Shown here: positions 3,362 to 61,502 of the stretch, piece by piece
How positions within the stretch are numbered: position 1 is the stretch's first letter
Layout: each line of letters opens with the position of its first letter
From: a virus
Lineage: Duplodnaviria > Caudoviricetes
Virus record (IMG/VR): IMGVR_UViG_3300028591_000070
Coordinates: 96,001-160,000 of that record
DNA length: 64,000 bases
Strand: one strand, 5' to 3'
Position numbers and translations under genes: made by a program
The notes under the pieces: model-generated
What the model saw: only the letters and a program-made list of their open reading frames with translations
The model's database searches: none
Told to the model about the DNA's origin: nothing

Positions 3362-3593
3362 TCCTGCTATTCAAACAGCTTATGGAGAACTTTGCAAAAA
3401 GCTTCAAGACGAAGCTAATAATCTTTGTGGGCCATCAGCAGTAATTATTGCTCCTGTTGAACGACCTTATGGAACAATGATTTATCTTTCTTATGGTGAT
3501 AAAGAATATGAGTTTAATCCAAGTGGTTTTAATTATCTTTATGTTCTTCGCCAGCTTACAGATAATCCAGTTATGGATGCTATAATGGAGTAG
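3354..3593 (+). CDS. hypothetical protein
   Basis: Start moved to ATG 3354 behind AAGGAG. Confidence 0.7.
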   Translation: MIDPAIQTAYGELCKKLQDEANNLCGPSAVIIAPVERPYGTMIYLSYGDKEYEFNPSGFNYLYVLRQLTDNPVMDAIME

Positions 3594-43037: not shown

Positions 43038-46000
43038 ATGAAAAAGTTTCAACCTAATAGTGATCTATACAACAATTTTTACGATGGCTACACTTCTTCA
43101 GATGAATTTATAGCCAAAAAAAGAATCCATACAACTAATGAAATTCCTCCTCTTTCAATTTATAAGAATCTCCATTCTATGCTTCAGAGAGATTTCTGGA
43201 AGAACTTAGTTGGCGACACAGAAATTATTTATGATGAGTATTATAATTTAGACACAGATGGAAAAGAAACTTTTGATAGAAATGGTGACATAAAGGAAAT
43301 GTCAGTTGCCAAATATACAAATGGCATTCGTTCCTTAAACTATGGCCCAATCCCTAGATTAGTTTGGAATAAAAACTGGAAAAAAGATTATGAGAATTAT
43401 TTACAACAAGTAGAAGATGGTGAAGCATTTGATGAAGGTAAAACAGCAAATGACTTTAAATATATTGTAGATAATTCTGAAACAAAATATAATCGTTTTG
43501 AAGTAACTGGTGTTTTTGAGCCTCAGAAAGATCTTATGATGCATGAGGCTTATCGCTATTTAAGTTGTATTTATCCAGACCATCCAGATTATTTGAACAT
43601 TCTTACAAAGAATGAATTTGATGATAAAATTGATGACTCAGCTTGTTTAATTGATTATAAGATTGATATTCCTTTTATGGATTGGCTTCCAAAATATTTT
43701 GAATATATTGAAGGAATAAATACACAAATTGCTCAAGAAGATGAAGCTGCAAAATTAAAGATTCGTAACCTTAAAAATTATGCAATGAATAGAAAATTCT
43801 TTGGTGCTAAAGAAGGTTATAAAATGTTTGCGGCATCTGCTTTCCAACATGCATCAATTTACTCAGCTTCTCAATATATTCCATTAGAGGGTGGAAATGT
43901 TTCAAGTTTTGGCACTCCAAAGAATGTTGATATTACTTGGTTTAAGGAGTTTTTTGACCAGCCTGAAGAATTTACAAATAGTGACATAGATAAAGGACAC
44001 TACTTATATAAGAAACTTTTCAGAAATATAGATTGGCAGAACTCTTCTTATGATTTCATAAACAGATATAAAGAGCCAACTCCTTTTTATGGAACAGCAT
44101 ATCCAACTCCAAATTCTCGTTTTGTTTTATATGAATATCCAAATGAAAGAATTATCGATACTTTGGATAAACAGGAAGGAAGATCAACTGATGATCTCTA
44201 TGGAACAATAAGAGCTGATTTCAAAGAAGGTCAGAAAATTAAGGTAAGTGGTCAAAAACAAAATTGGGAAGAAGGCTCGTATAAAGAAGGACATATCTCA
44301 TATATTACAAGCGAAACTTATTATAAAGTTAGAGCTATATTAGGATATAACAAGAGTGGTGATTACATGCCTTCTAAATCTGAATTAGAAGAGCATCATA
44401 TTGATAATGCTATTACAGTTGTAAATGTTGATACTCCATTGCAGCCACTTTACAAAAATTTTAGTGTATATCCTTCAAATGGAAAAATACTTCAGCTTAT
44501 TTCAGACCATGACAATAATCCTGAATTAATAGAACATGATAAGGATTTACCTATTGAAGAAAAATGGGCAATTCATAAGAGTGATGCAGATGTAATGCTT
44601 CCATATTTTCAATCACTTGAAATGGAACAGCCTTTCTATTGTTCAACTATTGTTCTTGAGAATATTTATGGTGATATTAAAGGTGAATTATCAAGATTTA
44701 ATGAGGCTCCTAAAGTAAAAACTGCAAAAATCACATTAGACCCACATCAAGATGGATGCATATTTATTGCCCCACAACAGCAGATTTCTGAATTTGAAGA
44801 GGCCTTAAATATCACATTAAATATAGATAGTTGGTTTGATGAGAATGTAGCAAAACCTGCCTCAAAAATAATTTATGGAACTACAAATCTTTCTGATAAA
44901 GCTTTCTTGAAAGAAGGTGATTATATTGTTTCAGAAGATAAAAAATATATCTCATCTGTTTTAGGATTGTCTAGCGCATTCTTACAATTCAGCTTAACTG
45001 GAAAAGGAACAGACTATGAACTTATAAATAAAAAAGTAGAAGCAATGAATAAAGAAACTACTGCTAGACATGGTGTTGTTTTTGCTTTAAGTGGAAACAA
45101 CCCAGAAGCAGCAGGAAAAAGAGTAATTGTTTTTGGTAAGCCTACTTTTGAAGATGTTACTTCTATGGACAATGATCCAAGAAAATTCTCTTCTAAGGGT
45201 GTTTATTTTGATGTTAAAGCAATTCCTACAACTAAAGACCATGCTCAATTAAGATTTATTTACGGTAGTAGATTTGCTTCTATTGCAGCTCAAAAATATC
45301 AAGATTTAAGACAGTTGTATAAAGATGATTATCTTTCTATTGCTGATGAATATGCTAAAAATCTTTTAGATAATCTTCTTTTGATTGATGAAAGTTTTAA
45401 GGCTTTAGATGAGAGAGTTGAAAAAACTAGAGAGTCTATTAAGAATGAGTCTATTTATTACAATGACTACTCAGCTAAAAAATATGATTATTATATGGAC
45501 ACAACTATTTCTGCTATGCTTCTTCGTAAAGTTTTACAAAAACAAGCAGAAAAAACTTATAAGCCTTATGATGATGAATTAAATGGTAAAATTGATGACC
45601 TTGTAAAAACTTATAGAAATACTTGTAACTATGAACTTACTATGGCTGGTGATACAACTTATGCAAATCTTGAAACAGCTAGAAATATTTATACAGATAG
45701 TTTAGTTGACGCTTGGAATGGTTTCAATAAAGTATTTAATGAGGAATACAATAAGTTTTATAAGGCTATTAGCAATTTAGTAGAAGATGGCACAGATTTA
45801 GAAGCTCCAAAAATTAAAAAGAATCTTGAAAAGAATTATAAGATTGTAAATGAAAAATTAAATATTCTTTATAATGCAATTTTAGATTATACACAAGTTT
45901 ATAATGACTCAAATTGGACAGATATTTCTCAGCCATTAGAAGATCTTCTCGGATGGTTTGATAGATTTAAGGACTCTAGAACTCTTATCAGAGAAGCTTA

Positions 46001-49000
46001 TACTAAACTCTTCAAGGATGGTAAAGATGCAGAACAAATCTATCTTAATAGCTGCATACAGTCTCTTAAAGAGTTTAATGATGTATATTATCCTCAATAT
46101 GTTGAATATACTAAGGCTCTTAATAATTCTGAAAATGATGTTCATGAGGAATTAGAGTCAGTTGAGCATCTTTTCTCAGCAATTTCATATTACTATGATG
46201 AAATTGAAAATACTCTTAATCAAAGAAAAACAGTTACTAAAGATGTAACAGACTCTTTCAAAGATGCATTCTATGACTATACAAACTTTATAATTTCTTC
46301 TTGCGGTAAAGGTTCTTATGACGAAAGAGGAATGGCCGCCTTCAAGAAAGATTATAATAAAAAATTACAAGAATTTATTACACTCGAAATTAAAGCTAAA
46401 GAGGTTGTTAAAAAATATGTAGATGAATACATGACTTGGTTTAGTGAAGAGATTGCAATTTATTTTGATGATGAGCAGTTTTATAGCGATGTTATAGACA
46501 TTAAGAGCTCAGACCCAGAAATTAGAAATCTTTCACTAGATATTCTTGGATGTGATACAGTTTTATTTACTGAAATGCTTCCAAATAAAGCATTCTTATT
46601 AGCTCCTCTTCCTAAAGACCTTTTAATGAGAAAGGAATTAGAAGGAGATTTTAGTTACTCATTACTTACAGACCAAGATTATTTCCAAGATATTGTTTCA
46701 TTCAAGAAAAATGAATTTGATGATTTATTGGAATTAGAAGCAGAAAGTATTTTTGGTAGAAGTGGATTGCTCACAAACTGTAAATCAGTTTCAATGGATG
46801 CTTGGAGTTTTGGTTCAATAAACACAGCAACATTAGCAGAGACTCACTATGATGAGGATATATTTGATTATGTTACTGAAGATGTTGCCTTAAAAACAGA
46901 AGCAGATAAAAACTTCTTAGGTGATTACTATCAGTCTAATAAACCTTGGATAAATGATTATTATATTGATGACCCACAGGCAGCAGAATTAGAAGTTAAA
47001 CAATATAAATATTTTGACTTAAATCAGGATATTTATACTTTAATGAATGATACTGATATGACTCATAAGTTTGCATATTGTGACCCTAATATGCTTGAAA
47101 TGTTCTTAACTGATGAGGATAAGAATAATATTCGTGGTGAGGTATTAAATTTTAATAAAGTAAAAATTAATTGTCATACTGTACAAGATTCAAATGTTGT
47201 TACCTTAGAGGAAAGAGCATCAATTAGAAAATTAGATTATATCACAACAGGATGCCAAGTTATTGGTAAAACTGTAGATGATGATACATATGTAGAAGCA
47301 ATTGACTTAGAAGATCATTCTATAACATTAAATAAGCCAATGCAGATTACAGGTGAATTTGTATTTACATTTTTATGTAAAATTCAATATGAGCCTGATG
47401 ACGTTTCAGAAGACTTCTATAATTATCGTATTGCAGCTTCTAAAAATAAAGAAGTTTCAAATAACTCAATTTTTGAACATGGTGTTATTGATACCTTAAA
47501 TTATGGCGAAATCTCAGATTATATGCTTAGCTCATATATTGATTTTGCTGTATTTAGAGAAGCTCTTACTGATAACTTACAAGAGCAGCCATACTATAAA
47601 GAAAACTTCAATTTGCTTGTAAGAAATTTCTATAATAGATATTTGGGAACAGCTCGTGAGAATGATGTATTTGTTAAGCCATCTATGATTGAGAATGAAG
47701 ATGATATTTTCTTTGAATTAAATGCTTATAACCTTTTAGGTGAAGATTATATCATGAGGCAAGAAATATTAGATTATTTCTATCAGTACTTAGATGAAAT
47801 GACAAAAGCTTCAGATGACATTCATCTAGGTGTTGCTGTAAATGGATATACTCTAAATGATGGAAAAGTTTTCCATGGTGATAGCGCATTCTCAGATAAA
47901 AACATTCATGCTAAGTTTATAACTACTGATGACTGGAAGGATTATGAGCCATTCTATATTAAGATTGGTTGTGGTTGTATTCCAGGTATTTTTGATGAAA
48001 AAGAAATTGTAGACCACGATGAGAATGATGAACTTGTAGGAAGATCACTTTATAATGAACATGATGACCCTTATGGTTCTGCTCTTTATAATGGTTCACA
48101 AGTAGAAGTACAAGATAATACTCAAAGAAAACATTATTATGATATTGGTGACCCTGTATTTAAGGCTCGTTTAGGTGAATATGAAATTCAGAAAAATATC
48201 ATGTTTAATGATTTCTCATCTGATAGAGTATTTAATACTATCCAATTCTCAGTTATGAAAAGAATCATCGACTCATTTGTTGATGATAACACAATTACTA
48301 TTGCGAACTCAACAGTTTCAAACTGGAATGGATTACAAACATGGCCTAAAAACTGTTATACAATAGATGATCTTTATATTATGGGTGAAAATGGGGAAGC
48401 AGCTGAACTTAAAGATATAAACTTCTTAGGTGAATGGTCTCCTAAAATTGAAAATGATGAGATTGTTTTCCCAGAAAAGCCATTATATGACAATGTATTA
48501 AATTATTATGTAATTACAAATAATTATAGCTTCATTGTAGATGAGAAAGAGGTTAATTATAAGCCTGGACAGATTATTATCTGGGAAAATGACAAATGGA
48601 TTGTTAAAACATTCTATGCTGCTGGATTTATTGGTGATTCATATTCTGCAGCAAAATATATCACAGGTAAATATGAAGATGAGGCTATCACAACAGGTTC
48701 AAATCTTATCATTACTGAAACAACAGATTTTAGAGCAGTTATTCTTTATAAGGTTTTAAATTCTATTGGATGCTATACTAATATTGCCACTGCAGCAAAT
48801 TATGGTTACTCTAAATTATTAGAGCTTTATCAAAATGCTTTAGCATTCTTCAAAGAAGAAAAAACAATAGATGAAGTAAATGAATCAGTATATCCTATTG
48901 AATTAGACCCAACCTGTAAAAATACTTTTGATGAGAATACTTGTTATTGGTTTGAATACATTGGATATGATGCCGATTTTGCGGATGCTTTGGCAAATAG

Positions 49001-52000
49001 AAACTTTAAGCCAGGACAGTTTATTGCAGCTATTTATAATATTGACCATTTCGAGATTGTATTATGCGATGTTTCTCAATTACTATTCCATTTTGATAAC
49101 TCAAGAAAATATCTCTCTGAAAGAGAGTATAGAACATTCTTTGGATTAAACTCTAAAGCAAATGGAGCTTCATTAGAAGGTGAAGATTATATTGATAGAT
49201 ATCCATTCTTAATCAATGAAAAAATTGAGTCTATTTCAAATACTATTAAGTTGAGAGATTATGAAGAGCTCGTTCCAGGTTCATATTCTTCTATGAATAG
49301 AGTTTGTATTCCATTCACAGCAGAAGGATTTAGATATTTAGAAGATGGTTCAATCTCAAAAGAAAAAGAAAAGATTTTCCTTACAGAAGACTATATTTTC
49401 TCAGATGATGAAAATAAAGTATTATTTACATATAACATGATTGATGGTAAACCTGTAAAGTTTGCTATTTATCAGGAACAGAACAAATACTTTAAAAATA
49501 TTGTAAATAATGTAGTTGGATATTCAAAAGAAGAGGTTCTTACAAAAGATGGCCTTATTCAGAATGGTATCTTTACACCTGTTTCTGGATTTGACTTCAG
49601 TGGCTCAAGTTTAAGTTTGAATGATAGAATTTTAAGTCTTAAGCCAATTGATATTCGTTCAGCTTATGGACTTTATTTAGAGCCTCGTTTATTCAGTAAA
49701 TATACAACTATTTCTGGTACACTTAAAGGTATTATTGCAGATTCAGATATCGAAGAAAGACTTTATGGAAAAGTTTTGAAATGGAATGTTTCTCATGAAT
49801 TTGGAACTGGTACAAAAGAATATCTTAATAGAGTTTCATTTGCATCAGTTTTGGATAATTTCCGTCCAAATAATAAACAAGATGAAACAGTTTATCAAGA
49901 AAATAGTTTGACATTTGATAAAGATTCATTTGAAGACAAAATTATATCTGCTCCTAAGATTACAAAAGTGAATATCTTGGATAAGATTTCTACAGAAAAT
50001 GGAGTAACTTATTATAAGAATAATCTTATCGTTGAAGGTACAATTGATGAAAAAGACCCAACAGTTATCAACTTTGGTAGTACAAAATCTATTGATGCCT
50101 TAAATAATGTACAGGTTGGTGATAAGATTCTTGAAATTGCTTCTCTTACAAATGGTTCAAATACATTTAATCAGATTGATGCCGACCTTACAGGTATTAG
50201 ATTTATTGATTATAGAAATAATAAACTCTTGATTTGTGCTGACTCAGGTATGAAAGTAAGAGAAATGAGTGAGTTTACACTCGAGAATGTTAAGAGAATT
50301 AATGGTTCTACAAGACAGGACTACATCTTAGATGATGAAGTATTAACTGGTTCTGTAAGTCCTTCAATGCTTATCTGGGATAATGACCAAGAAAATTGGA
50401 TTTTAGCCCTTAAAGAAGCAAATGCTGAAATAGGTCTTGGAATGTATAATATTTCTTTCCAAGATGATAATAGAATCGTTCTTATTAAGATTGATGAAGA
50501 TCTTGAAAAAGATAATGACTTCAATAAGTTCCAATTAGTTGACCCTTACATTACTGAAAATCTTGATAAACTTAATAATTCAAATGATAAATTAATTTCT
50601 CATAAATATAGCGAAGGTAGAATGCTTGCAAGAGATATGGCCATTCGTGAAATTGATACAACAATCAATAAAAAGCCATCTAGAGCAACTGTTACTGTTG
50701 AATATAAAGAAACAAATGGCAAGATTCAGCCTAAATCTCCTATTATAGAATATGATGCATCACCTAGAAATTACATTGAATTAGATTGTACTATAAGCAA
50801 TACAAAAGAAGAAACAACTCTTAAATTAAAGAAAGATAAAGCTTATTGGTTGTTTGACAATAGAATTGGTAAGTGGATTTTCTATCAGACAAATAAGGGT
50901 TCTGAGATTCATATTGGTGACCAAGGAAAAGATTCTCTTAATTTAAGACTTTATTATGTTGGTTACAATACAGCTAAAAATATTGGATTAGACCAGACAT
51001 TTGAAACAGATGCTTGGGGATTTGCTGATGCTACAGAGGTAAATGATAATACTTTAGCTCAAGGTGAGTTCTTATGGAAATTACCTCGCCCAATGTATGA
51101 CAATGAAATTATTGCCGTACAAGTTGAAACACAAGCTTCTTATGAAAAGAGCTCAAATGTTGATGATAAAGATAATAAGTATTCAGAAATTGATGTTTAC
51201 GCCGAGATAGCGGGCGCAACAATTTCAGACGTAGCTATTACAACTAAAGACATTCTCACAATTGGTACAGAAGCTTATGATAATCATGAAGCTTTAAGAA
51301 ATAAAACAGACTTCGATAGATTACCATATGTAACAGGACCTTATATTCCTTATGAGGATAAGTCTAAAGTTATTAGAGGTTGCTCAAACTCAGATGGTTA
51401 TGAAGCTGTTTTGGTAGGTACAAATATCTTTATTAAGTCTCCTACAAAACTTTGGACTTCTGACAATAATAAACATTATACTCCAACTATGGAAACAGAA
51501 GAGTTCTTCTGGAAACGTGCAAAACTTCCAAGATTTAGAGATATTTCTCATGGTGATATTTCTAAAATGACTATTGAAGATGCATTTACAAAAGTTGCAA
51601 TTATGCGTCTTATGGTTTTGGAAGACCTTAAAACAAACTTCCCAGAGTCTGCATTCTATGCTTGGCTTAAAAATAATGAAGTTGTTCATTATGAGAATAT
51701 TGATGATATTCCAACAAAAATCACAATGAATGATGTATCTTATACTATTACTGCTAATGGTACAAGACCTACATATTTCACAACACTTAAAGATGGCGAG
51801 CTTGTTCCAGAAAGTGTAGTATATGGAAAAGCATTGCATTTTGAAAATTATATCGCAGCAGAGGATGTTGACCTTTCATTAGGATATGCTTCAAACTCAT
51901 ACTTAAAAGAGCAGATGTATCTTTCTTATTTGAGAGATTTCTATGAAATTATTTTAGGTTGCAATAATATTACAAATATGTTTGAAGAAGGAATAAAAGA

Positions 52001-55000
52001 TATTAAGATGTCTAATACTTGTCTTATTATTACTTCTTATAACAATATCATCATGAGTTTGCCATTCTCTAAAATGACAAGTAGAGATGATATTGAAAAC
52101 ATGAATAACTGGAATATGCTTAGTCTTAATACTGACTACGAAATTCCATGTTGTGATAATCATTCATATCAGAATGGAAATTATATCTATAAAGATAGTC
52201 AGAATGGTATTGTAACTTATAACTTTGGACCAAAATTATCATCATTCTTTGCTTATGACCTTACTTGCTCATATGTTAAGGATGATATTCAGGTTTATGG
52301 TGGTACATTAAATCTTGATAATCAGGCTGTTTCAGATTATTTGAGCTTCCTTAAAAAGTTTGATGGTGTAGATTATGACTATTCTTGGATGGATAAATCT
52401 AATGTAAATGCATTTAAGAATAAACATTTATTCATTGCTTATTCAAGTGATAATGGTCGTACATTCACTACAGTTGACCTTACAGAAGCTGGTATTCAGA
52501 TTCCAACAATGGGTTCAAATGTAAATGCAATTTATAGAATAGATAATACTATTAGAATTCTTTATAACAAGAGTTCTGATAAGATTTATAATTATGATAT
52601 TATAATTAAGGATGACTCTCTTGAAGAAAGTTTGATTGAAAAAGAATATACTGAATCTGACATTAAGTATAAGCTAATGAATAAAAATTTCTATATTGGT
52701 GGTGGCTATGAATGTTTAATCAACTCACCAGTAGAAAAGAATAGCTTTAATTCAAGTGTAGATAGTTTTATTATCTCAATGCCAGGTGCTTTCTCAGGTG
52801 GTACTATTTCTATAAAATCTGCTACTTCTATCACTTATAATCCAACAAATGTATATGATACAGATGGTGGAAACTTAAATGTTAGAGTTCTTTTAGCTAT
52901 TCAGACTTCTAAACAGATTTATGATCAGTTCAAATACCTCGACTATAAAGAAGATTACTTCAATATGCAAGGTGATTTAAGAGTAAGCGAATCTGAAGAG
53001 GTATTGAATTCATCAACTGCTGATAGAGCATTCTCATTAAATGAAACTTTACCACTTGCTCAAGAGTCAATTTATAGTATTCCTTCATTAGCTGTTGATA
53101 CTGGAGATAAAGGTACTCATAACATTTATAAATATAATGTTTCTCTTAAGAATGGCTCAAATGAAAAGGTTTATAACCCAATTCCTATGACAAACTTTGA
53201 AGGTAATGACATTTATCTTTGTGGTATGGTTTCTCAAGAAGAAGGAAAGAAATTCTTAATTTATAGAAACAGAACTATTGGAAGTTGCATGACATTTAAG
53301 GATATTCTTAAATCATATAATAGTTCACCAGATATTATTGACAATATCCAGAGAATGTATGATATAAATGATGACTTTGAGTTTACTGTAAATGATGAGT
53401 TCTTAACAAATATTATCAATAAATATGCAATTGATAAAAATCTCATCTTAAAAGAAATTCATTTTGAGAATGAAAATCCTCATATGATAAATACTACAAG
53501 TGAAAATACAGATGAAGATATTATCCAGATTTTGAATAATAAATACTTCTTAAAGTGGCCTACAATCGATGGTGCTTTATGCGAAAAGCTCTGTGGTGAT
53601 TTAGGACTTGAATTTGATGAGTATGATGGTTCTAATACTGATGATGGCCTTAAAGAGTTTTTAGAGAAGTTGCAGCTTCTTGAGAAAGATTTAGGCAACC
53701 TAACAGATGAAATTATTAGATCATACTTTAAACCAATTAAGGTTTACTATAATGAAGATGACTACTTCTATGGCGTTTATGAGATTAGTTCATCTACAAT
53801 TTTAATGACAGAAAGATCAATCAAAGAAGTTATTTCAATGACTTATGAGTTTGGTTCTACTTTCAATTATTTGGATAATTCAATTCTTACAAGTACTACA
53901 GATTTGGATGAAAATAATTTGAGTATGTATACTGCTGTATTAAATACTCAATATGATGAAAACTCTTTAATAAACGCAATTGCTATTGATCCGGTTGGTT
54001 ATGGAGCTTCAATAAGCAATAAGAAATGGGATAATAAGCTTCCTCAAGATATTGACCCAGCTGCTTGGGTTGAAAATACAATGTTGTTCAACTCAAATGG
54101 AGAGCCAATCTTCTTATGCGACACAAATGGAAATAATGTCACAATGAGAAAAGGTTTATTCTATGGTGAAAAAGGAAATGTTTATACAGTTTCTCATGAT
54201 AATCTTTATGCTGAAGATTCAGTTATTGACATTTTTGATGGCAACTTGGTTGATAATAAATCAACATTCCATTTCTATAGTTTACCTGAGTCTGAAATAA
54301 AGATTTGGACACCTTTTGAAAAAGTTGACCTTAAAGATACAGTAATTACTCCATTTAGAGTTTATAGAGGTGGTATTGCAATTTCTAAAGAAGAATTTGA
54401 TGCTCACTACACTTTAACTTATAGTTCTCTTTATAAGAATGACCTTACACCTTATGTTGGTTTAGCTATCACTTATGATGGTGAAAAACTTGCATTTAAG
54501 GGAAGTTATAATGGTGATGCTCTTGTTGAAAATGATGTTCTTAATATAACTATAACAGATAATAGATCTGGAGCTTCAGCTTCTATAACTCTTGAAGTAG
54601 AAAATAACAGCTTCAAAGTTGTAAATGTTCCAAATACATATGAGGCTTATACAGAAGATGATTCACAACAAATAACTTATGTTATCAATAGAGAACTTTC
54701 TAAGATTTCTATTCCAGATAATAATATCAGTGGAGCAATTTCTAGAGAAAATGGAAAAACAAATTTAGCAATTACAATTGCTAGATGGCCTGAAAAACCT
54801 TCAATTATCATTTATGATAATGATGGTAATTCAGCAAATCTTAAATTGGATGTTGTTAAATTAAATCCAAAGCTTTATACAGATAGAGATTGGATTAGTG
54901 ACAATTTAGATGTAGATGGAATAAATTGTAAAGTATACTCAGAAGATGTAGATATTACAGATAGATATGTTATCACAAAAACTAATAAACAAATTAAAGC

Positions 55001-56333
55001 TGTTTGTAAGTATTCTGCACTCTCTATTCTTACAAAAGAAATTAAACAAGTTGAGTCTAATATTAAAGTAGGTGATATTGATTACAACAATAAGTTTGTT
55101 TATTCTTATGGTGAAGAAAATACATTTGTTGTAAATCGTCAGGAAGACTTCTTAATTAGAGGTTTATTTGGACAAGTAATTCTTCTTGCTCCAGCATTTA
55201 AAAACTTTAAAGACTTAATTACCTCTCTTGGAAGAATGATTGATACTGATGTTGAAGAAATTTATAATGTTGAGACAGCAGATGAAAAAATCTCAATTGT
55301 AAGTATAGATACAACAAAAGTAAGTATTGACCACTTATTAGATACTGAAGCACCTTATTTAAGGATAAAGCTTATGCCAGTTTCTTCTATTATATTGCCA
55401 TCAGACCTTATGAATAATAAGGATTACTATACTGAGATTAGTATTGATGATATAGACTTCTATGGTTATGATAGAGTTTGGATTAATGAGAATGTATTTA
55501 TGGCTCCTCCATTAAAAGTAGAAAATCAATACTTTAATACAGAGAGTGTTGCACAATATACAGTTGAGTCTTGGAAAAACAAAGATGGATATTCAGTATA
55601 TCTTTCTGATGAAAATGGTAAGTATGTTAAAGGATTTATCAATAATCATAAATTGAATTATAAGGTTATTGGTGATGAATTTGGAAATTGCTCACAAGAA
55701 GTTTATCAGAGTGTAAATCCTAGATTAAATCCAACTGAGCTTATTTATAAGACTGCTTATGATTATTACTATAACACATATTATAGTAGTGTTAGAAGAA
55801 GCAATCCATTCTTTAGATTCTTGAAGATTAACCAAAATATTATTGGTGAGAATATCATAGATGAGATTGGACTTTATCAGCAGCTTAAAGAGAATAATGT
55901 AATAGTTCTCAAGAAGGATAATGACTTTAATGTAATTAACAAGATCACATTAGACCTCGACCTAAATCAGACTTATAGTCTTGATGATATTATTGATGAA
56001 AAGAAAGGAGAACTAAATTATATTATAACATGCACTCCTTCTGATGAAGAATATAGCTATTTAGCTGGTATTAAATATAAGAATTACATGTATGATAGTG
56101 ACATTGTTTCTGATAAAAAATATTGTAAAGTAGACAGTAATTTAATGGCTAAGTTTGCAATACTTTCAAAAGAAGATGTAACTAATACTGAGTATAAGCC
56201 TATAGTCAATATCACAGAAATGGGTATCTTCAGTAAGGAAGGATATTTGTTAGCTTATATGCACCATCCTATCGTGCAATATAATACAAAAACAAATCAC
56301 ATCTCATATAACTTAATTATAGAGAATGCATAG
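43038..56333 (+). CDS. giant baseplate/tail-fibre-associated protein, 4431 aa
   Basis: N-terminal IRNLKNYAMNRKFFGAKEGY resembles a baseplate-wedge (P2 gpI-like) motif; C-terminal ITEMGIFSKEGYLLAYMHHP resembles tail-collar/fibre-attachment domains; follows the gp53-like gene. Confidence 0.65.
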   Translation: MKKFQPNSDLYNNFYDGYTSSDEFIAKKRIHTTNEIPPLSIYKNLHSMLQRDFWKNLVGDTEIIYDEYYNLDTDGKETFDRNGDIKEMSVAKYTNGIRSLNYGPIPRLVWNKNWKKDYENYLQQVEDGEAFDEGKTANDFKYIVDNSETKYNRFEVTGVFEPQKDLMMHEAYRYLSCIYPDHPDYLNILTKNEFDDKIDDSACLIDYKIDIPFMDWLPKYFEYIEGINTQIAQEDEAAKLKIRNLKNYAMNRKFFGAKEGYKMFAASAFQHASIYSASQYIPLEGGNVSSFGTPKNVDITWFKEFFDQPEEFTNSDIDKGHYLYKKLFRNIDWQNSSYDFINRYKEPTPFYGTAYPTPNSRFVLYEYPNERIIDTLDKQEGRSTDDLYGTIRADFKEGQKIKVSGQKQNWEEGSYKEGHISYITSETYYKVRAILGYNKSGDYMPSKSELEEHHIDNAITVVNVDTPLQPLYKNFSVYPSNGKILQLISDHDNNPELIEHDKDLPIEEKWAIHKSDADVMLPYFQSLEMEQPFYCSTIVLENIYGDIKGELSRFNEAPKVKTAKITLDPHQDGCIFIAPQQQISEFEEALNITLNIDSWFDENVAKPASKIIYGTTNLSDKAFLKEGDYIVSEDKKYISSVLGLSSAFLQFSLTGKGTDYELINKKVEAMNKETTARHGVVFALSGNNPEAAGKRVIVFGKPTFEDVTSMDNDPRKFSSKGVYFDVKAIPTTKDHAQLRFIYGSRFASIAAQKYQDLRQLYKDDYLSIADEYAKNLLDNLLLIDESFKALDERVEKTRESIKNESIYYNDYSAKKYDYYMDTTISAMLLRKVLQKQAEKTYKPYDDELNGKIDDLVKTYRNTCNYELTMAGDTTYANLETARNIYTDSLVDAWNGFNKVFNEEYNKFYKAISNLVEDGTDLEAPKIKKNLEKNYKIVNEKLNILYNAILDYTQVYNDSNWTDISQPLEDLLGWFDRFKDSRTLIREAYTKLFKDGKDAEQIYLNSCIQSLKEFNDVYYPQYVEYTKALNNSENDVHEELESVEHLFSAISYYYDEIENTLNQRKTVTKDVTDSFKDAFYDYTNFIISSCGKGSYDERGMAAFKKDYNKKLQEFITLEIKAKEVVKKYVDEYMTWFSEEIAIYFDDEQFYSDVIDIKSSDPEIRNLSLDILGCDTVLFTEMLPNKAFLLAPLPKDLLMRKELEGDFSYSLLTDQDYFQDIVSFKKNEFDDLLELEAESIFGRSGLLTNCKSVSMDAWSFGSINTATLAETHYDEDIFDYVTEDVALKTEADKNFLGDYYQSNKPWINDYYIDDPQAAELEVKQYKYFDLNQDIYTLMNDTDMTHKFAYCDPNMLEMFLTDEDKNNIRGEVLNFNKVKINCHTVQDSNVVTLEERASIRKLDYITTGCQVIGKTVDDDTYVEAIDLEDHSITLNKPMQITGEFVFTFLCKIQYEPDDVSEDFYNYRIAASKNKEVSNNSIFEHGVIDTLNYGEISDYMLSSYIDFAVFREALTDNLQEQPYYKENFNLLVRNFYNRYLGTARENDVFVKPSMIENEDDIFFELNAYNLLGEDYIMRQEILDYFYQYLDEMTKASDDIHLGVAVNGYTLNDGKVFHGDSAFSDKNIHAKFITTDDWKDYEPFYIKIGCGCIPGIFDEKEIVDHDENDELVGRSLYNEHDDPYGSALYNGSQVEVQDNTQRKHYYDIGDPVFKARLGEYEIQKNIMFNDFSSDRVFNTIQFSVMKRIIDSFVDDNTITIANSTVSNWNGLQTWPKNCYTIDDLYIMGENGEAAELKDINFLGEWSPKIENDEIVFPEKPLYDNVLNYYVITNNYSFIVDEKEVNYKPGQIIIWENDKWIVKTFYAAGFIGDSYSAAKYITGKYEDEAITTGSNLIITETTDFRAVILYKVLNSIGCYTNIATAANYGYSKLLELYQNALAFFKEEKTIDEVNESVYPIELDPTCKNTFDENTCYWFEYIGYDADFADALANRNFKPGQFIAAIYNIDHFEIVLCDVSQLLFHFDNSRKYLSEREYRTFFGLNSKANGASLEGEDYIDRYPFLINEKIESISNTIKLRDYEELVPGSYSSMNRVCIPFTAEGFRYLEDGSISKEKEKIFLTEDYIFSDDENKVLFTYNMIDGKPVKFAIYQEQNKYFKNIVNNVVGYSKEEVLTKDGLIQNGIFTPVSGFDFSGSSLSLNDRILSLKPIDIRSAYGLYLEPRLFSKYTTISGTLKGIIADSDIEERLYGKVLKWNVSHEFGTGTKEYLNRVSFASVLDNFRPNNKQDETVYQENSLTFDKDSFEDKIISAPKITKVNILDKISTENGVTYYKNNLIVEGTIDEKDPTVINFGSTKSIDALNNVQVGDKILEIASLTNGSNTFNQIDADLTGIRFIDYRNNKLLICADSGMKVREMSEFTLENVKRINGSTRQDYILDDEVLTGSVSPSMLIWDNDQENWILALKEANAEIGLGMYNISFQDDNRIVLIKIDEDLEKDNDFNKFQLVDPYITENLDKLNNSNDKLISHKYSEGRMLARDMAIREIDTTINKKPSRATVTVEYKETNGKIQPKSPIIEYDASPRNYIELDCTISNTKEETTLKLKKDKAYWLFDNRIGKWIFYQTNKGSEIHIGDQGKDSLNLRLYYVGYNTAKNIGLDQTFETDAWGFADATEVNDNTLAQGEFLWKLPRPMYDNEIIAVQVETQASYEKSSNVDDKDNKYSEIDVYAEIAGATISDVAITTKDILTIGTEAYDNHEALRNKTDFDRLPYVTGPYIPYEDKSKVIRGCSNSDGYEAVLVGTNIFIKSPTKLWTSDNNKHYTPTMETEEFFWKRAKLPRFRDISHGDISKMTIEDAFTKVAIMRLMVLEDLKTNFPESAFYAWLKNNEVVHYENIDDIPTKITMNDVSYTITANGTRPTYFTTLKDGELVPESVVYGKALHFENYIAAEDVDLSLGYASNSYLKEQMYLSYLRDFYEIILGCNNITNMFEEGIKDIKMSNTCLIITSYNNIIMSLPFSKMTSRDDIENMNNWNMLSLNTDYEIPCCDNHSYQNGNYIYKDSQNGIVTYNFGPKLSSFFAYDLTCSYVKDDIQVYGGTLNLDNQAVSDYLSFLKKFDGVDYDYSWMDKSNVNAFKNKHLFIAYSSDNGRTFTTVDLTEAGIQIPTMGSNVNAIYRIDNTIRILYNKSSDKIYNYDIIIKDDSLEESLIEKEYTESDIKYKLMNKNFYIGGGYECLINSPVEKNSFNSSVDSFIISMPGAFSGGTISIKSATSITYNPTNVYDTDGGNLNVRVLLAIQTSKQIYDQFKYLDYKEDYFNMQGDLRVSESEEVLNSSTADRAFSLNETLPLAQESIYSIPSLAVDTGDKGTHNIYKYNVSLKNGSNEKVYNPIPMTNFEGNDIYLCGMVSQEEGKKFLIYRNRTIGSCMTFKDILKSYNSSPDIIDNIQRMYDINDDFEFTVNDEFLTNIINKYAIDKNLILKEIHFENENPHMINTTSENTDEDIIQILNNKYFLKWPTIDGALCEKLCGDLGLEFDEYDGSNTDDGLKEFLEKLQLLEKDLGNLTDEIIRSYFKPIKVYYNEDDYFYGVYEISSSTILMTERSIKEVISMTYEFGSTFNYLDNSILTSTTDLDENNLSMYTAVLNTQYDENSLINAIAIDPVGYGASISNKKWDNKLPQDIDPAAWVENTMLFNSNGEPIFLCDTNGNNVTMRKGLFYGEKGNVYTVSHDNLYAEDSVIDIFDGNLVDNKSTFHFYSLPESEIKIWTPFEKVDLKDTVITPFRVYRGGIAISKEEFDAHYTLTYSSLYKNDLTPYVGLAITYDGEKLAFKGSYNGDALVENDVLNITITDNRSGASASITLEVENNSFKVVNVPNTYEAYTEDDSQQITYVINRELSKISIPDNNISGAISRENGKTNLAITIARWPEKPSIIIYDNDGNSANLKLDVVKLNPKLYTDRDWISDNLDVDGINCKVYSEDVDITDRYVITKTNKQIKAVCKYSALSILTKEIKQVESNIKVGDIDYNNKFVYSYGEENTFVVNRQEDFLIRGLFGQVILLAPAFKNFKDLITSLGRMIDTDVEEIYNVETADEKISIVSIDTTKVSIDHLLDTEAPYLRIKLMPVSSIILPSDLMNNKDYYTEISIDDIDFYGYDRVWINENVFMAPPLKVENQYFNTESVAQYTVESWKNKDGYSVYLSDENGKYVKGFINNHKLNYKVIGDEFGNCSQEVYQSVNPRLNPTELIYKTAYDYYYNTYYSSVRRSNPFFRFLKINQNIIGENIIDEIGLYQQLKENNVIVLKKDNDFNVINKITLDLDLNQTYSLDDIIDEKKGELNYIITCTPSDEEYSYLAGIKYKNYMYDSDIVSDKKYCKVDSNLMAKFAILSKEDVTNTEYKPIVNITEMGIFSKEGYLLAYMHHPIVQYNTKTNHISYNLIIENA

Positions 56334-56589: not shown

Positions 56590-56632
56590 CAAAAAATGGG
56601 AAGATGTCTAGCTAGCCCATCTTCCCAAAAAA
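56590..56632 (-). terminator. terminator closing the ncRNA operon
   Basis: GGGAAGATG...CATCTTCCC hairpin followed by a T-tract on the minus strand. Confidence 0.8.
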
Positions 56633-56769
56633 TCATGCCGTCTCACTACTTAGAACTTAAGAGGTAATAAATAGTCTTTTTGTGAGACGATCCATAAAAA
56701 TGGATTGGGAACCTTCAGATAACGGCCAACAGTTCCTCATCTCACGATTTTCAAAATGCCGTTTTAGAG

Positions 56770-56855
56770 TGCACCAGACGAGACTCGAACTCGTACGCCT
56801 GTTACCAGACACAGGATTTTAAGTCCTGGGCGTCTACCAGTTCCGCCACTGATGC
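56770..56855 (-). tRNA. trnL: tRNA-Leu(UAA), CCA not encoded
   Basis: GCATCAG acceptor, D-loop AACTGGTAGA, CAGGA-CTTAAAA-TCCTG anticodon arm, long variable arm, ACGAG-TTCGAGT-CTCGT T-arm. Confidence 0.95.
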
Positions 56856-57036: not shown

Positions 57037-57150
57037 ATTACTGAAAAAAGGACTCGAACCTCTTTCGCGCGCCTTATCGTCAGCTGGGATCTGCTTAATG
57101 CAGGCCATACTTATTGTCAGGCACTGTGCGCCAGTACACCATTCAGTAAT
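57037..57150 (-). ncRNA. tRNA-like RNA with 46-nt insert in place of the anticodon loop
   Basis: TACTGAA/TTCAGTA acceptor, U8, GTGT-ACTGGC-GCAC D-arm, GTGCC/GGCGC stem, AGAGG-TTCGAGT-CCTTT T-arm. Confidence 0.8.
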
Positions 57151-57205
57151 GAGTGTTTCGAACCACTCCAGAAAGTTCACGTTCGAAATAGAACTTTCCT
57201 TTTAT

Positions 57206-57291
57206 TGAGGACTCCAGGAATTGAACCTGATCATCTTCTGCATTTAAGTTTTAACTTAAAATTTGGTAATGCAACCGTACATCAAATCCTC
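57206..57291 (-). ncRNA. tRNA-like RNA with non-canonical anticodon/variable region
   Basis: GAGGATT/AGTCCTC acceptor, ATGT-ACGGTT-GCAT D-arm, TCAGG-TTCAATT-CCTGG T-arm; middle is a TTTAAGT-TAAA-ACTTAAA hairpin. Confidence 0.8.
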
Positions 57292-57297
57292 AAAAAT

Positions 57298-57452
57298 TCG
57301 TAATTCCGACTTTACGGTTAAAGTCTCCGCTTTAGTATTCTCTTAATCATCGAGAATTGATTGATTCGGGCTAATTTCGCGCAGTGAATTACTCTGCCTT
57401 ATTATGAACCAATCCGCCCAACCTAATTCATCTTAGGACATCTTTGTTACGA
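57298..57452 (-). ncRNA. multi-branched structured RNA of unknown family
   Basis: Closed by TCGTAA/TTACGA; internal stems CCTAA/TTAGG, GATTGGTTC/GAATCAATC, GCAG/CTGC, ATTCTC/GAGAAT, GACTTTA/TAAAGTC. Confidence 0.6.
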
Positions 57453-57497
57453 GTGTGAGCTTTTCAGCATTTCACCCTGATTATTATTCTCTATATT

Positions 57498-57529
57498 TAG
57501 ACTATACCAAAGCTAAAGAAAAAGTTCAA
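57498..57529 (-). promoter_or_regulatory. early promoter of the tRNA/ncRNA operon
   Basis: TTGAAC-17nt-TATAGT-CTA, with no protein gene downstream. Confidence 0.85.
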
Positions 57530-58255: not shown

Positions 58256-59032
58256 TTAAATTGAAAAATATTTAAATCCGATTACAGCATCTTTGCCACA
58301 TTCGTCTTCAAGAACTTTCTTTACAGATCTTTTATCATCTTTTACGAAAGGCTGCTCTAAGAAACAAACTTCAGCTAGATGCTTATTAAGTTTACCAGTA
58401 AGAATACCTTCTTTTACCTTATCAGGTTTTCCGGCCATCTTAGGATCTTTATCCATCTGAGCCTTGAAAATTTCCATCTTTTCATCAAGGTAGTCCTGAG
58501 GTACACTTTCTTTGTTGATAAAAGGTGGCTCAAAAGCTACAAGATGCAAACAGCAGTCATGAGCAAATGTTTTTGCCTTCTCTCTGTCTTTAACATTAGA
58601 AAGAATTACTACAGCACCAGACTTATTATCAGAATGTACATATGTACCAACTACATCTTCAGGACCATAGTCAAATGATTTTTCTGTGTCGATAATAATA
58701 TTTTCGCGCATAGAAACTTTAAGTTTATCTACAGCTTCTGTGAGATTTTCAGCTTCACCTAATGCTGCAAAGTCTTTGTTATTTGCAACAAAGTCTGTCT
58801 CACATTTTATAACAGCAACATTTACAGCATCTTTACCATTATCTTTGATAAAGACTCGACCTTCAGCAGTAGCTCTACCACTTCTAGCATCAGAAGCAGC
58901 AAGTCCTTTCTTCTGAAGAACTTTTATTGCTTCATCAAAATCACCATTAGCTTCATCTAATGCCTTCTTACAATCTGCAAGACCTGCCATAGTAGCAGCT
59001 CTTAATTTTTTAACCAATTCAACATTTGCCAT
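58256..59032 (-). CDS. tsf: translation elongation factor Ts
   Basis: VKKLRAATMAGLADCKKAL UBA-like N-terminus, RATAEG, CETDFVA signature, YVH, GKPDKVKEGILTGKL, LEQPFVKDD. Confidence 0.95.
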   Translation of the reverse strand: MANVELVKKLRAATMAGLADCKKALDEANGDFDEAIKVLQKKGLAASDARSGRATAEGRVFIKDNGKDAVNVAVIKCETDFVANNKDFAALGEAENLTEAVDKLKVSMRENIIIDTEKSFDYGPEDVVGTYVHSDNKSGAVVILSNVKDREKAKTFAHDCCLHLVAFEPPFINKESVPQDYLDEKMEIFKAQMDKDPKMAGKPDKVKEGILTGKLNKHLAEVCFLEQPFVKDDKRSVKKVLEDECGKDAVIGFKYFSI

Positions 59033-60265
59033 TTATTTTTCCTCATCTGATGCTTTAAAGTTATAAATAGGTTTTATAATAGATATAACATCAGCATTTT
59101 CTTTAATATTATCCAAAATCTCATCAGCAGATTTATAAGCCATTGGAGATTCATCAATTGTAGAAGTACTTACACAAGTAGTATAAATATCCTTCATTGC
59201 CGCCTTAAAATCTTCCATCTTCAAGCATTCTTTTGCTTTAGAACGAGACATTAAACGACCAGCTCCATGTGGGCCAGAGAAGTTCCAGTCTGGGTTTCCC
59301 TTACCTTTTACAATCAAAGAACCATATTCCATGTTGATTGGAATAATAGCTTCTTCACCTTCCTGAAGAGAAATTGCGCCTTTACGCAAAATGCCATTTT
59401 CAAGGTCGATATAATTGTGGATAGTACAAAACTTACCAAGAATATGTCTTTTTTTAATTCCCATTTCTTCAATGAGAACATCAAGCATTGCTTCACGATT
59501 TAAGCGAGCAAACTCCTGGCAGATTTTCATATCATGCAAATATCCATCCAAATCTTCGCCTTCAAGATATGACAACTCTCTAGAAATTATAACTGGTGGA
59601 AGCTTAGCAATTTCTTCCTGAATGTCTTTTTCACGACCTTCTTTTTTAAGTCTGTTAATAAGTTCATTCTTAGCAGAAGAATTATTTTTATGATAAGCGA
59701 TTGCTTTATTTTCCCAGTATTTAGCAACTACAATTCCAAGGTGACGAGAACCAGAGTGGATTACAATATAATAATCACCATTCTCATCTTTATCGATTTC
59801 AACAAAGTGGTTTCCACCACCTAATGAACCCATAGCATAAAGTTCTTTATCATAGTCGGCATCCGCAATAAGCTGTTTAATGTCAATATTTTTTGTAAAC
59901 TTATGGTAAGTTGAACGATGGCCCGCTCCTGATGGAACTTTAGTATGCATGATCTTATCAAACTTATCCAAACCTGGCTTATTAAATAACTGCTTTCCAG
60001 CTTCTGCAGAAATTTTCAAAACAAGCATTCCACAGCCAATATCAACTCCAACCATATTTGGATTGACGCGAGGATTCTCTTTATTGATCTTCTGGGTAAA
60101 TCCAATTGTGACACCTTTTCCACTGTGTACATCTGGCATAATAGCCACATGGCATCCCTCTGTAACAGGATTATTTGCAAAAGTATATAATTGAGATAAT
60201 GCCTCATCCTCAACTGTTGAGGCATATACATTCATTTCGCAAAACTTACCTTTAATAGTAAACAT
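59033..60265 (-). CDS. rtcB: RNA 3'-phosphate/5'-OH ligase RtcB
   Basis: MPDVHSGKG, VGVDIGCG, GSLGGGNHF, IHSGSR, HNY, RKGA, HGAGR, DESPMAYK. Confidence 0.95.
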   Translation of the reverse strand: MFTIKGKFCEMNVYASTVEDEALSQLYTFANNPVTEGCHVAIMPDVHSGKGVTIGFTQKINKENPRVNPNMVGVDIGCGMLVLKISAEAGKQLFNKPGLDKFDKIMHTKVPSGAGHRSTYHKFTKNIDIKQLIADADYDKELYAMGSLGGGNHFVEIDKDENGDYYIVIHSGSRHLGIVVAKYWENKAIAYHKNNSSAKNELINRLKKEGREKDIQEEIAKLPPVIISRELSYLEGEDLDGYLHDMKICQEFARLNREAMLDVLIEEMGIKKRHILGKFCTIHNYIDLENGILRKGAISLQEGEEAIIPINMEYGSLIVKGKGNPDWNFSGPHGAGRLMSRSKAKECLKMEDFKAAMKDIYTTCVSTSTIDESPMAYKSADEILDNIKENADVISIIKPIYNFKASDEEK

Positions 60266-60268
60266 AAC

Positions 60269-61135
60269 CTACCTCTCTAACCATCGCTTACATAAAAAAC
60301 CTGGGACAAAACCTTCTGGGCATTCATAGCAAAACTTATTTTCTTTGCCATTATTAAACCAGTGTTTTCCTTTGCCTGCTTCAGAAATTTTCTTTTTTCG
60401 TTTTTCCTCAGTTTCTTTATTTATTTTTTTAGTAATTCCTTTCCAATAACCTTCTGGGCAACATTCAGATACTATATTATCTTTTCCATTTGTCCAGAAA
60501 GTTTTTCCAAACATTCCATTATCTTTTCCAAATTTTTGTGAAGATGGACAAGACTGACCTTTATTCCAAACTTTAATTTCACCAGACTCATATTTTGTTT
60601 TTAAAGTTGTTGAAATTTTTTCTTTCGTGGATTCATTTAATGAATGACCTTCATTATGAGTTTTAATCTCTTTTGAAGCATATTTTCTTTTAAGAGTATT
60701 AGAAATTTTATCCTTGTGATCTTTAGAAGGACTTTTATGTAAAGTTCCATTTTTTATTTTAGTTTCTTTAGCTTTGCTTCTTGACTCAGGAGTCCAATTA
60801 TTTATGCCTTTTCTAAGATTAGAATGCATAATTTTTAATTGCTCATATTCTCTACTAGAGATTTTATAATCTGAATTAGGTCGAACAGTAAAAGCTACTA
60901 AAGCATATGACATTTCTTTTGATGGATATATTTTACTTAAAAGTTGATGACAGAAAAAATGCTCTCTTGCTGTCAAAAGAACTATATTTGTTCTTCTCTT
61001 TTTCCATAAAGGAAATAATGACTTTGGTAAAATATGATGCCTTTCATAATATCCATTCTTTTTAGATCTTAAACCTTGTGTTTCCTCCAATCTCGCATTA
61101 GAAATAATTTTAATATAAACTTTTCTATAATTCAT
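60269..61135 (-). mobile_element. free-standing HNH homing endonuclease with NUMOD-type repeats
   Basis: ERHHILPKS...NIVLLTAREHFFCHQLL; HKDKISNTLK, NGMFGK, WTNG, WFNNG repeats. Confidence 0.9.
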
Positions 61136-61138
61136 ATT

Positions 61139-61297
61139 TTAATTAGTTAAACTAGTATGTGTATCTGGCATAATTGCAATATTACAACCTTCTACAACAG
61201 GAGAGTTCATAAATCCGTAAATTTGAGACATACATTCATCTTCAACTGTAGTAGCATAAACTTTTGCAGTTCCATATTTTCTTGTTATTTCAAACAT
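61139..61297 (-). pseudogene. rtcB: displaced rtcB 5' fragment (52 aa)
   Basis: MFEITRKYGTAKVYATTVEDECMSQIYGFMNSPVVEGCNIAIMPDTH aligns with the first 47 aa of 59033..60265; SD AAGGAG. Confidence 0.9.
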
Positions 61298-61301
61298 AAT
61301 T

Positions 61302-61502
61302 TTACTCCTTCTTATGTATTTCGAAATACATAATTGTATGACCAGGGTCAAACTCATTGTCAACTTTAACAAGAGCCAAAGTCTTACCTTTTTCAGGTAT
61401 ATTTTCAGCTGCAAGTTTTGTTAATTTTTCTTCTGAAACTTCGACATATATTCTGTCATTTTCATCTCCGATAGGATTATCACAAACAAAATAATGCAAC
61501 AT
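61302..61502 (-). CDS. hypothetical protein
   Basis: SD AAGGAG. Confidence 0.7.
   Translation of the reverse strand: MLHYFVCDNPIGDENDRIYVEVSEEKLTKLAAENIPEKGKTLALVKVDNEFDPGHTIMYFEIHKKE

What the first reader, a model, noticed from the sequence alone, without database searches (positions are those of the whole stretch)
57037..57150. tRNA mimic with a structured 46-nt insert bounded by direct repeats in the anticodon loop
Seen: the elbow determinants are intact (U8, A14, G18G19, G53-TTCGA-C61) and the anticodon stem is paired (GTGCC/GGCGC). The loop (57074-57119) is 46 nt, begins and ends with near-identical CTGACAATAAG / CTGACGATAAG, and contains a CTGC-ATTAA-GCAG hairpin. The 3' side GATAAGG resembles tRNA-Ile(GAU), but removing one repeat unit gives a 9-nt loop, not a canonical one. 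Inference: an intron-like insert that RtcB could help splice, or a tRNA scaffold displaying a two-site binding element.
Basis: partly seen in the sequence, partly recalled or inferred. Interest (0 to 1): 0.75.

Follow-up and report, generated by a model that had tools for sequence, protein, structure and literature searches.

The report
Phage tRNA mimic with loop-E arm
A giant gut-type phage carries a small RNA gene shaped like a tRNA, but its code-reading loop is replaced by a long stiff arm built with a structural motif known from ribosomal 5S RNA; it is not an intron, cannot read codons, and probably serves as a decoy or scaffold whose partner is still unknown.

Summary
The element is real and lies on the minus strand (57148-57038), in a non-coding operon beyond the tRNA array of a 386-kb jumbo phage. 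It is not an intron: no excision restores U33, and the phage has no splicing endonuclease. The two 'direct repeats' are best read as the two strands of one bacterial loop E motif (GACAAUA/GACGAUA). This exact pair occurs in a natural 5S rRNA, and the single mismatch is the central A-G pair, present in 76 of 78 5S-type hits. The 46-nt 'loop' is therefore a stacked rod with a hairpin cap. Relatives show four arm types on a homologous tRNA body: this one; a longer arm with the same cap; an arm with two loop E motifs in swapped strand order; and a 9-nt loop equal to this RNA minus one repeat. It fails the Y RNA tests although the phage encodes Ro60. Most likely it is a non-decoding tRNA mimic acting as scaffold or decoy; expression and partner are untested.

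The parts
57038..57148 (-). tRNA-like RNA gene, acceptor 5' end to discriminator position; no encoded CCA
57142..57148 (-). acceptor stem 5' strand (pairs with 57045-57039; one extra U at 57046 between T stem and acceptor)
57126..57139 (-). D arm: 4-bp stem, 6-nt loop with A14 and G18G19; stem nearly invariant across all four arm types
57120..57124 (-). anticodon stem 5' strand (pairs with 57073-57069), extended by a U-A pair 57119/57074 that is U-G in relatives
57112..57118 (-). loop E 5' strand GACAAUA (core of 'repeat 1', 57120-57110)
57075..57081 (-). loop E 3' strand GACGAUA (core of 'repeat 2', 57083-57073); central pair A57115-G57078
57082..57111 (-). apical cap: two 3-bp helices with a bulged A, a 1x3 loop, and the 4-bp hairpin 57103-57091 with 5-nt loop; 29/30 identical between short-arm and long-arm relatives
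57047..57063 (-). T arm
57151..57168 (-). upstream hairpin with T-loop-like 8-nt loop, kept 15-17 nt before the D arm in all four arm types with compensatory stem changes; may belong to the same RNA
57171..57198 (-). second upstream hairpin, conserved with paired changes in close relatives
57501..57529 (-). promoter-like site (9/12, extended -10) in front of the non-coding operon; such sites are no more frequent than in shuffles, but it is conserved in relatives
57206..57291 (-). neighbouring second tRNA-like element with a remodelled anticodon arm (Rfam tRNA 23.8 bits, below cut-off)
56769..56855 (-). ordinary tRNA-Leu(UAA) downstream in the same operon
58256..60265 (-). context genes upstream: EF-Ts (58256-59032) and RtcB (59033-60265)

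Best explanation
The gene makes a non-decoding, tRNA-shaped RNA. SHOWN (sequence and comparison): a tRNA elbow and an irregular acceptor/T helix carry, in place of the anticodon loop, a rod made of the anticodon stem, one bacterial loop E motif and a bulged hairpin cap. The two repeats are the two strands of that pseudo-symmetric motif. The body belongs to a family in related jumbo phages whose arm length varies widely (25 to 112 nt between the D and T arms). INFERRED: it is transcribed from the promoter at 57529-57501 with its neighbours and cut out as a stable RNA by tRNA-processing enzymes, and it is not spliced. It acts as a scaffold or decoy: the elbow is recognised as tRNA, but there is no anticodon loop to decode or to be cut by an anticodon nuclease. 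Loop E keeps the long arm stacked without a long perfect helix and offers a docking face. Which partner uses it is open. My rough split within this reading: a host factor that recognises tRNA shape (anti-phage nuclease or toxin) about 40%, a loop E binder such as host bL25/CTC about 25%, the phage Ro60 about 20%, RNA-RNA docking about 15%.
For: Loop E identity: among 78 distinct 5S-geometry hits whose 5' strand is GACRATA, the central pair is A-G or G-A in 76; our exact pair occurs once and the swapped pair four times. Rfam confirms 5S for the five loci tested, including the exact-pair one. The geometry arises in 22 of 100,000 shuffles and once in the whole 386-kb genome on both strands. Independent support: a model built only from our arm type picked out a homologue in a more distant phage (L232, EF-Ts 74% identical) with two such motifs in swapped strand order and a different cap. 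All 11 substitutions among the short-arm relatives fall in unpaired positions, keep pairing (U-G to U-A, U-A to U-G, G-C to G-U), or turn one sheared A-G into A-A. The same 11-nt pair lies upstream of a GOLLD 3' domain in an unrelated phage. Context: about 46 tRNAs, tmRNA, RtcB, EF-Ts, Ro60, a CCA-adding-type enzyme and GOLLD, which Iyer et al. (PMC7824862) read as counter-defence against tRNA attack.
Against: The arm is not needed for the family to persist: L249-L256 keep the body with a 9-nt loop, the long-arm type keeps only part of the motif (G-A, G-U, U-G, A-A, U-A, U-A, A-G in register), and L246 (EF-Ts 98%) has no trace of the operon. Whole-RNA folding z-score is only -1.79. The short-arm relatives are 97% identical, so their substitutions are few and not independent. 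The motif finder was written after I saw the motif. The 5S sample was capped at 120 rows and selected for this strand type.
Confidence: 0.55

Rival explanations
1. It is an un-permuted Y RNA: the arm is the Ro60-binding stem of the phage's own Ro60, closed by a hairpin instead of holding the RNA ends.
For: The genome encodes a TROVE protein like Thermus phage Ro60. In YrlA the Ro-binding stem extends from the anticodon position (10.1101/312249). The long-arm relatives carry GCCGAAAG, which fits the GNCGAAN0-1G motif of Chen et al. (PMC4201824), on the 3' strand of the arm.
Against: Our copy lacks the motif. It lies about 20 kb from the Ro60 gene, whereas nearly all YrlA lie within 4 kb. There is no Rfam YrlA hit. 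The phage has a separate family of 12 handle-bearing RNAs, three of them just upstream of Ro60, whose GCAG-N8/9-GTTACTTC signature our element lacks. In the long form the motif overlaps the loop E strand GAAAGUA, so it may be coincidence.
Confidence: 0.15
2. It is a 5S mimic that titrates the host ribosomal protein bL25/CTC, or another loop E binder, through its loop E.
For: The motif is letter for letter a natural 5S loop E. L25 binds loop E (PMC4408793). L232 doubles the motif. 24 of 50 genomes with this loop E type encode L25.
Against: 26 of those 50 genomes show no L25, so the sequence type is not tied to it (many are incomplete). The phage encodes no L25. Two of four arm types lack an intact motif. 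E-loops are also plain architecture in other RNAs, for example raiA, where one docks on RNA (PMC12968392). The host's own loop E type was not checked.
Confidence: 0.13
3. The cap is an antisense guide: its loop and 5' stem strand pair with the conserved 5' segment of the phage's 12 Y-like handle RNAs and regulate them.
For: The cap's 10-mer is the exact reverse complement of the handle copy next to Ro60 and is unique on that strand of the genome. The mean duplex energy beats 97.7% of shuffles and 97.2% of array windows. The cap is 29/30 conserved between arm types.
Against: The test was post hoc with p of about 0.02-0.03. The segment is locked in a hairpin with pairing probability 0.99. The hairpin is nearly palindromic in an AT-rich genome. 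L232 has a different cap.
Confidence: 0.06
4. It has no role of its own: a degenerate tRNA kept only as a processing signal for the operon, with a neutral duplication in its loop.
For: An allele equal to this RNA minus one repeat exists and aligns without gaps (51/77 identical), so the insert can be gained or lost at the repeats. The operon is mosaic and can be absent.
Against: The one mismatch between the repeats is exactly the one loop E requires. The motif recurs twice, with swapped strands, in L232. Substitutions preserve pairing, and the cap is kept on two different arms.
Confidence: 0.08
5. The insert is an intron removed by a nuclease and sealed by RtcB to give a tRNA-Ile-like product.
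For: RtcB is encoded 1.9 kb away.
Against: No excision gives U33. There is no splicing endonuclease in the genome and no bulge-helix-bulge in the fold. The body is non-canonical. A normal tRNA-Ile(GAT) is already in the array. Relatives have no common splice junction.
Confidence: 0.03

Closest known systems
Bacterial loop E (E-loop) motif of 5S rRNA, the bL25 site (PMC4408793; Leontis and Westhof 1998 as cited there, not read)
   Same: Symmetric 7x7 internal loop GA-nnn-UA / GA-nnn-UA between Watson-Crick helices; sequence identical to a natural 5S variant; central A-G / G-A swap seen as in 5S.
   Different: Sits in the anticodon arm of a tRNA-like phage RNA; the rest of 5S is absent; binding untested.
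YrlA-type bacterial and phage Y RNAs with Ro60/Rsr (PMC4201824; 10.1101/312249; PMC12135203)
   Same: tRNA elbow with a long stem in place of the anticodon arm; Ro60 in the same genome and on the same strand.
   Different: Not circularly permuted; lacks GNCGAAN0-1G in this copy; about 20 kb from Ro60; no Rfam match; lacks the phage's own handle signature.
Phage T4 RNAC and RNAD (PMC3014915)
   Same: Small RNAs of unknown role transcribed from a phage tRNA region.
   Different: No sequence match (Rfam and phage BLAST negative); loop E arm not reported in the passage I could read.
Intron-containing tRNA genes (archaeal/eukaryal type; own knowledge)
   Same: Extra sequence within the anticodon loop; an RtcB ligase nearby.
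   Different: No product with a canonical loop, no bulge-helix-bulge, no endonuclease.
GOLLD and raiA ornate RNAs (PMC12286853, PMC12968392)
   Same: Phage tRNA-array RNAs (GOLLD); E-loop used as a docking element (raiA); the same 11-nt pair lies upstream of a GOLLD 3' domain (L004).
   Different: Much larger, no tRNA body of this kind; no family match for our RNA.

Membership tests
canonical tRNA (RF00005) | 7-nt anticodon loop with U33 | tested here: not met
   46 nt enclosed; insert-less allele has 9 nt
canonical tRNA (RF00005) | elbow residues U8, A14, G18, G19, T loop | tested here: met
   A21 and a purine at 15 are missing
canonical tRNA (RF00005) | 7+5 bp acceptor/T helix without extra residues | tested here: not met
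   one extra U at 57046; irregular in relatives too
canonical tRNA (RF00005) | CCA addition and aminoacylation | not testable with these tools
   CCA not encoded; the phage has a PF01743 nucleotidyltransferase
intron-containing tRNA | excision restores a canonical anticodon loop | tested here: not met
   0 of 8 possible 7-nt products have U33
intron-containing tRNA | bulge-helix-bulge signal and splicing endonuclease, or self-splicing intron core | tested here: not met
   fold shows none; PF01974 absent; no Rfam intron hit
YrlA / Y RNA | GNCGAAN0-1G Ro-binding motif | tested here: not met
   absent in this copy; present in long-arm relatives
YrlA / Y RNA | permuted order T arm - closed acceptor - D arm | tested here: not met
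   ordinary order D arm - arm - T arm
YrlA / Y RNA | encoded within about 4 kb of Ro60 on the same strand | tested here: not met
   Ro60 gene at genome 172.8-174.5 kb, element at 153.1 kb
YrlA / Y RNA | bound by Ro60 | not testable with these tools
   needs a binding assay
bacterial loop E motif | symmetric 7x7 loop, GA at the 5' end and UA at the 3' end of both strands, flanked by Watson-Crick helices | tested here: met
bacterial loop E motif | inner pairs of a type found in natural 5S rRNA, with central A-G or G-A | tested here: met
   exact pair in the 5S of L347; 76/78 central A-G or G-A
bacterial loop E motif | variation in homologues keeps the non-canonical pairs | tested here: inconclusive
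   L232 has the strand swap twice and L236 has A-A for A-G, but the long-arm type keeps only part and L249 has one strand
bacterial loop E motif | seven stacked non-canonical pairs in 3D; binds bL25 | not testable with these tools
   needs probing, structure or binding assay
5S rRNA (RF00001) | whole-family match | tested here: not met
   no hit up to E = 10

The most novel reading that the evidence does not exclude
These phages build a family of tRNA-ribosome chimeric decoys. A tRNA elbow displays one or more copies of a 5S rRNA loop E (in one relative two copies plus a sarcin-ricin-like AGUA/GAA loop) and so captures a host ribosomal protein such as bL25/CTC, or a defence nuclease that reads tRNA or rRNA shapes.
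Probability: 0.15. Interest if true: 0.85.

Novelty: new variant of a known kind. Interest (0 to 1): 0.52.

Why it matters
It corrects a tempting misreading: direct repeats at the ends of an anticodon insert can be the two strands of a symmetric RNA motif rather than splice or insertion signals. It defines an unannotated family of phage tRNA mimics with four natural arm variants (none, partial, one or two loop E motifs) on a homologous body. That is a ready-made series for asking what tRNA-like RNAs in phage tRNA arrays do, a question still open for T4 RNAC/RNAD. If the arm binds bL25 or a defence nuclease, it would be a phage RNA mimicking two parts of the translation machinery at once.

Tried and rejected
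Plus-strand fold: not the coding strand. Repeat-pattern scans of IMG/VR and metagenomes: almost all hits were unrelated tandem repeats; only the GOLLD-associated L004/L005/L050/L112 was informative. D-arm and cap pattern scans and a double-motif scan: chance hits or none. RtcB-based locus search: distant phages without the element. EF-Ts locus search in IMG/VR: none. Phage BLAST: only tRNA-Leu hits or nothing. Hammerhead reading of CUGACGA...GAAA: rejected by inspection, since stem II cannot close. Kissing dimer through the cap loop: rejected, because the loop's UUAA palindrome is lost in relatives. Several primary papers on loop E, L25 and GOLLD were not held. No protein fold or complex job was sent, because the question concerns RNA.

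Full report
1. Observation. The element is on the minus strand, from 57148 (first acceptor base) to 57038. U8, A14, G18G19, the T loop, the 5-bp anticodon stem, the 46 enclosed nucleotides (57119-57074), the two 11-nt repeats (57120-57110, 57083-57073) and the small hairpin (57103-57091) are all as described. A repeat this good occurred in 11 of 5000 shuffles of the loop, and never at both ends. ARAGORN finds the gene only with introns allowed and Rfam has no match. The body is imperfect: 6-nt D loop, C at position 15, no A21, an extra U between T stem and acceptor, no encoded CCA.

2. Setting. The window is part of a 385,934-base virus record rated complete, with a 145-nt end repeat. It holds about 46 tRNAs and a tmRNA between 152 and 184 kb, EF-Ts and RtcB just upstream of the element, a Ro60-like TROVE protein about 20 kb away, a GOLLD 3' domain and a CCA-adding-type enzyme. 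The closest named bacterial EF-Ts matches are Treponema, so the host is probably a gut spirochaete (inference). The element lies in a non-coding stretch of about 900 nt behind a promoter-like site at 57529-57501 (a weak score alone, but conserved in relatives).

3. It is not an intron. None of the eight ways to trim the loop to 7 nt gives U33. The fold has no bulge-helix-bulge, the genome has no tRNA splicing endonuclease, and an ordinary tRNA-Ile(GAT) is already present.

4. The repeats are one motif. The fold pairs the anticodon stem, one more U-A pair, two short inner helices and the cap, and leaves a symmetric 7x7 loop made of the repeat cores GACAAUA and GACGAUA. Read against each other they give G-A, A-U, C-A, A-G, A-C, U-A, A-G. 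From memory this is the pattern of bacterial 5S loop E, so I tested it. A genome scan for 5S-shaped sequences with GACRATA as the 5' strand gave 78 distinct hits. The partner strand, whose three inner positions were free, made the central pair A-G or G-A in 76. Our exact pair occurred once and the swapped pair four times. Rfam confirmed 5S at all five loci tested, including the exact-pair locus L347. So the single mismatch between the 'repeats' is the pair the motif requires. The geometry appears in 22 of 100,000 shuffles, and a motif finder returns only this site in the whole genome. That finder was written after the fact, and the 5S sample was capped and selected, so these numbers show fit and not frequency in nature. 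Loop E is described as symmetrical, highly structured and the L25 site (PMC4408793); in raiA RNA an E-loop docks on RNA (PMC12968392).

5. Relatives. Using EF-Ts and the 147-aa neighbour as anchors, I found four arm types on a homologous body that shares the D stem, the T arm and an upstream hairpin with compensatory changes. (a) Short arm, as here (L236, L237, L257-L259, L384-L386). All 11 substitutions in the four relatives tabulated are unpaired, keep pairing, or change one sheared A-G to A-A; the second repeat drifts to 8/11 identity with the first in L236. (b) Long arm (L240, L241, L243, L381-L383): no repeats, the same 30-nt cap at 29/30 identity, a 3' strand GAAAGUA colinear with ours, and only part of the motif intact. 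(c) L232, a more distant phage, found by a covariance model built from type (a) alone: two tandem loop E motifs with the strands in swapped order, an S-turn-like loop and a different cap. (d) L249-L256: a 9-nt loop holding one strand. This allele aligns without gaps to our RNA minus one repeat (51/77 identical), with a compensatory change in the anticodon stem. So the insert can be gained or lost at the repeats in DNA, but the empty form is not a normal tRNA either. The direction is unresolved. L246, with 98% identical EF-Ts, shows no trace of the operon in the stretch fetched, so the operon appears optional. The same 11-nt pair also lies upstream of a GOLLD 3' domain in an unrelated phage.

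6. Ro60. YrlA RNAs carry their Ro-binding stem at the anticodon position, and type (b) has a match to the GNCGAAN0-1G motif there. Our copy does not. It is far from the Ro60 gene, and it lacks the signature of the 12 handle RNAs that cluster in the array and around that gene. I therefore do not file it as a Y RNA, although its layout resembles one. The cap is complementary to the 5' segment of those handles, but only at p of about 0.02-0.03 in a post hoc test.

7. Mechanism. Shown: a tRNA elbow, no decoding loop, a loop-E-containing rod, and conservation of structure across a variable family. Inferred: co-transcription, excision by tRNA-processing enzymes, and action as a stable scaffold or decoy in a phage that is rich in tRNA repair and replacement functions (PMC7824862). 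I put the structural reading at about 0.85 and the scaffold/decoy mechanism at 0.55. The partner is open. L25 is present in 24 of 50 genomes with this loop E type and absent from the phage, which neither supports nor excludes it. No expression data could be obtained.

8. Novelty. tRNA mimics are known (YrlA, tmRNA), T4 RNAC/RNAD are small RNAs of unknown role from a phage tRNA region, and this scan has noted anticodon-less phage tRNA-like RNAs on other DNA (unchecked notes). I found no paper joining tRNA-like phage RNAs with loop E (the library lacks most subscription papers) and no database match. Verdict: a real feature and a new variant of a known kind; interest 0.52.

Noticed in passing
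genome G000:C1 163381-182226, minus strand (L008, L009): Twelve copies of a Y-RNA-like handle (GCAG, 8-9 nt, GTTACTTC; one variant copy) inside the tRNA array. Three lie just upstream of the Ro60 gene, and one encloses a permuted YrlA-type tRNA module (Rfam YrlA 33.9 bits, below cut-off). Several are conserved in L222.
   Followed up: partly
L008 9343-9802 (genome 169343-169802), minus strand: GOLLD 3' domain (96 bits, below cut-off) overlapping an embedded tRNA-Asn with the unusual anticodon ATT; the relative L222 has a tRNA-Leu(TAG) at the matching place.
   Followed up: partly
L232 about 3335-3495: Family member with two tandem loop E motifs and an AAAGUA/GAAAA loop resembling a sarcin-ricin (S-turn) motif; no Rfam or phage-database match.
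   Followed up: yes
L004 7780-7835 (also L005, L050, L112): The same ordered 11-nt pair about 420 nt upstream of a GOLLD 3' domain in another phage's tRNA array, probably an E-loop of the GOLLD 5' domain; the neighbouring stretch matches the GOLLD of phage Phosso (L380).
   Followed up: partly
window 57206-57291, minus strand: Second tRNA-like element with a remodelled anticodon arm; relatives swap in other odd tRNA-like RNAs at this slot (L243 7033-7113 and 7250-7355, L240 about 1940-2045).
   Followed up: no
window about 57340-57490, minus strand: Multibranch non-coding RNA at the head of the operon, diverged but recognisable in L240 and L381 and possibly L249; no Rfam match.
   Followed up: no
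window about 56620-56765, minus strand: About 150-nt non-coding stretch after tRNA-Leu that is the best-conserved part of the operon (89-98% in L240 and L243, also present in L249); no Rfam match.
   Followed up: no
   Followed up: no
window 60269-61414, minus strand: A 288-aa ORF without a Pfam match and a 91-aa ORF that looks like an RtcB N-terminal piece lie upstream of the full-length rtcB. In L243-L245 and L256 rtcB is split around a 254-265-aa ORF, which suggests a mobile intron or homing element.
   Followed up: no
L243 7759-8700; L384 8177-8750: tRNA-Leu at the end of the operon is interrupted or replaced by an inserted ORF (one with faint HNH hits), leaving a tRNA fragment behind.
   Followed up: no
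L234 11355-11483 and 19899-20027: Two further tRNA-like genes with 39-49-nt anticodon-arm inserts, unrelated in sequence to this family, in a phage with 71% identical EF-Ts.
   Followed up: no
window 58256-59032: Phage-encoded EF-Ts whose closest named bacterial matches are Treponema (49-54%), pointing to a spirochaete host; relatives come from bovine and pig gut metagenomes.
   Followed up: partly
window 43038-56333: 4431-aa ORF on the plus strand, conserved in length in relatives (4428-4736 aa); not examined.
   Followed up: no
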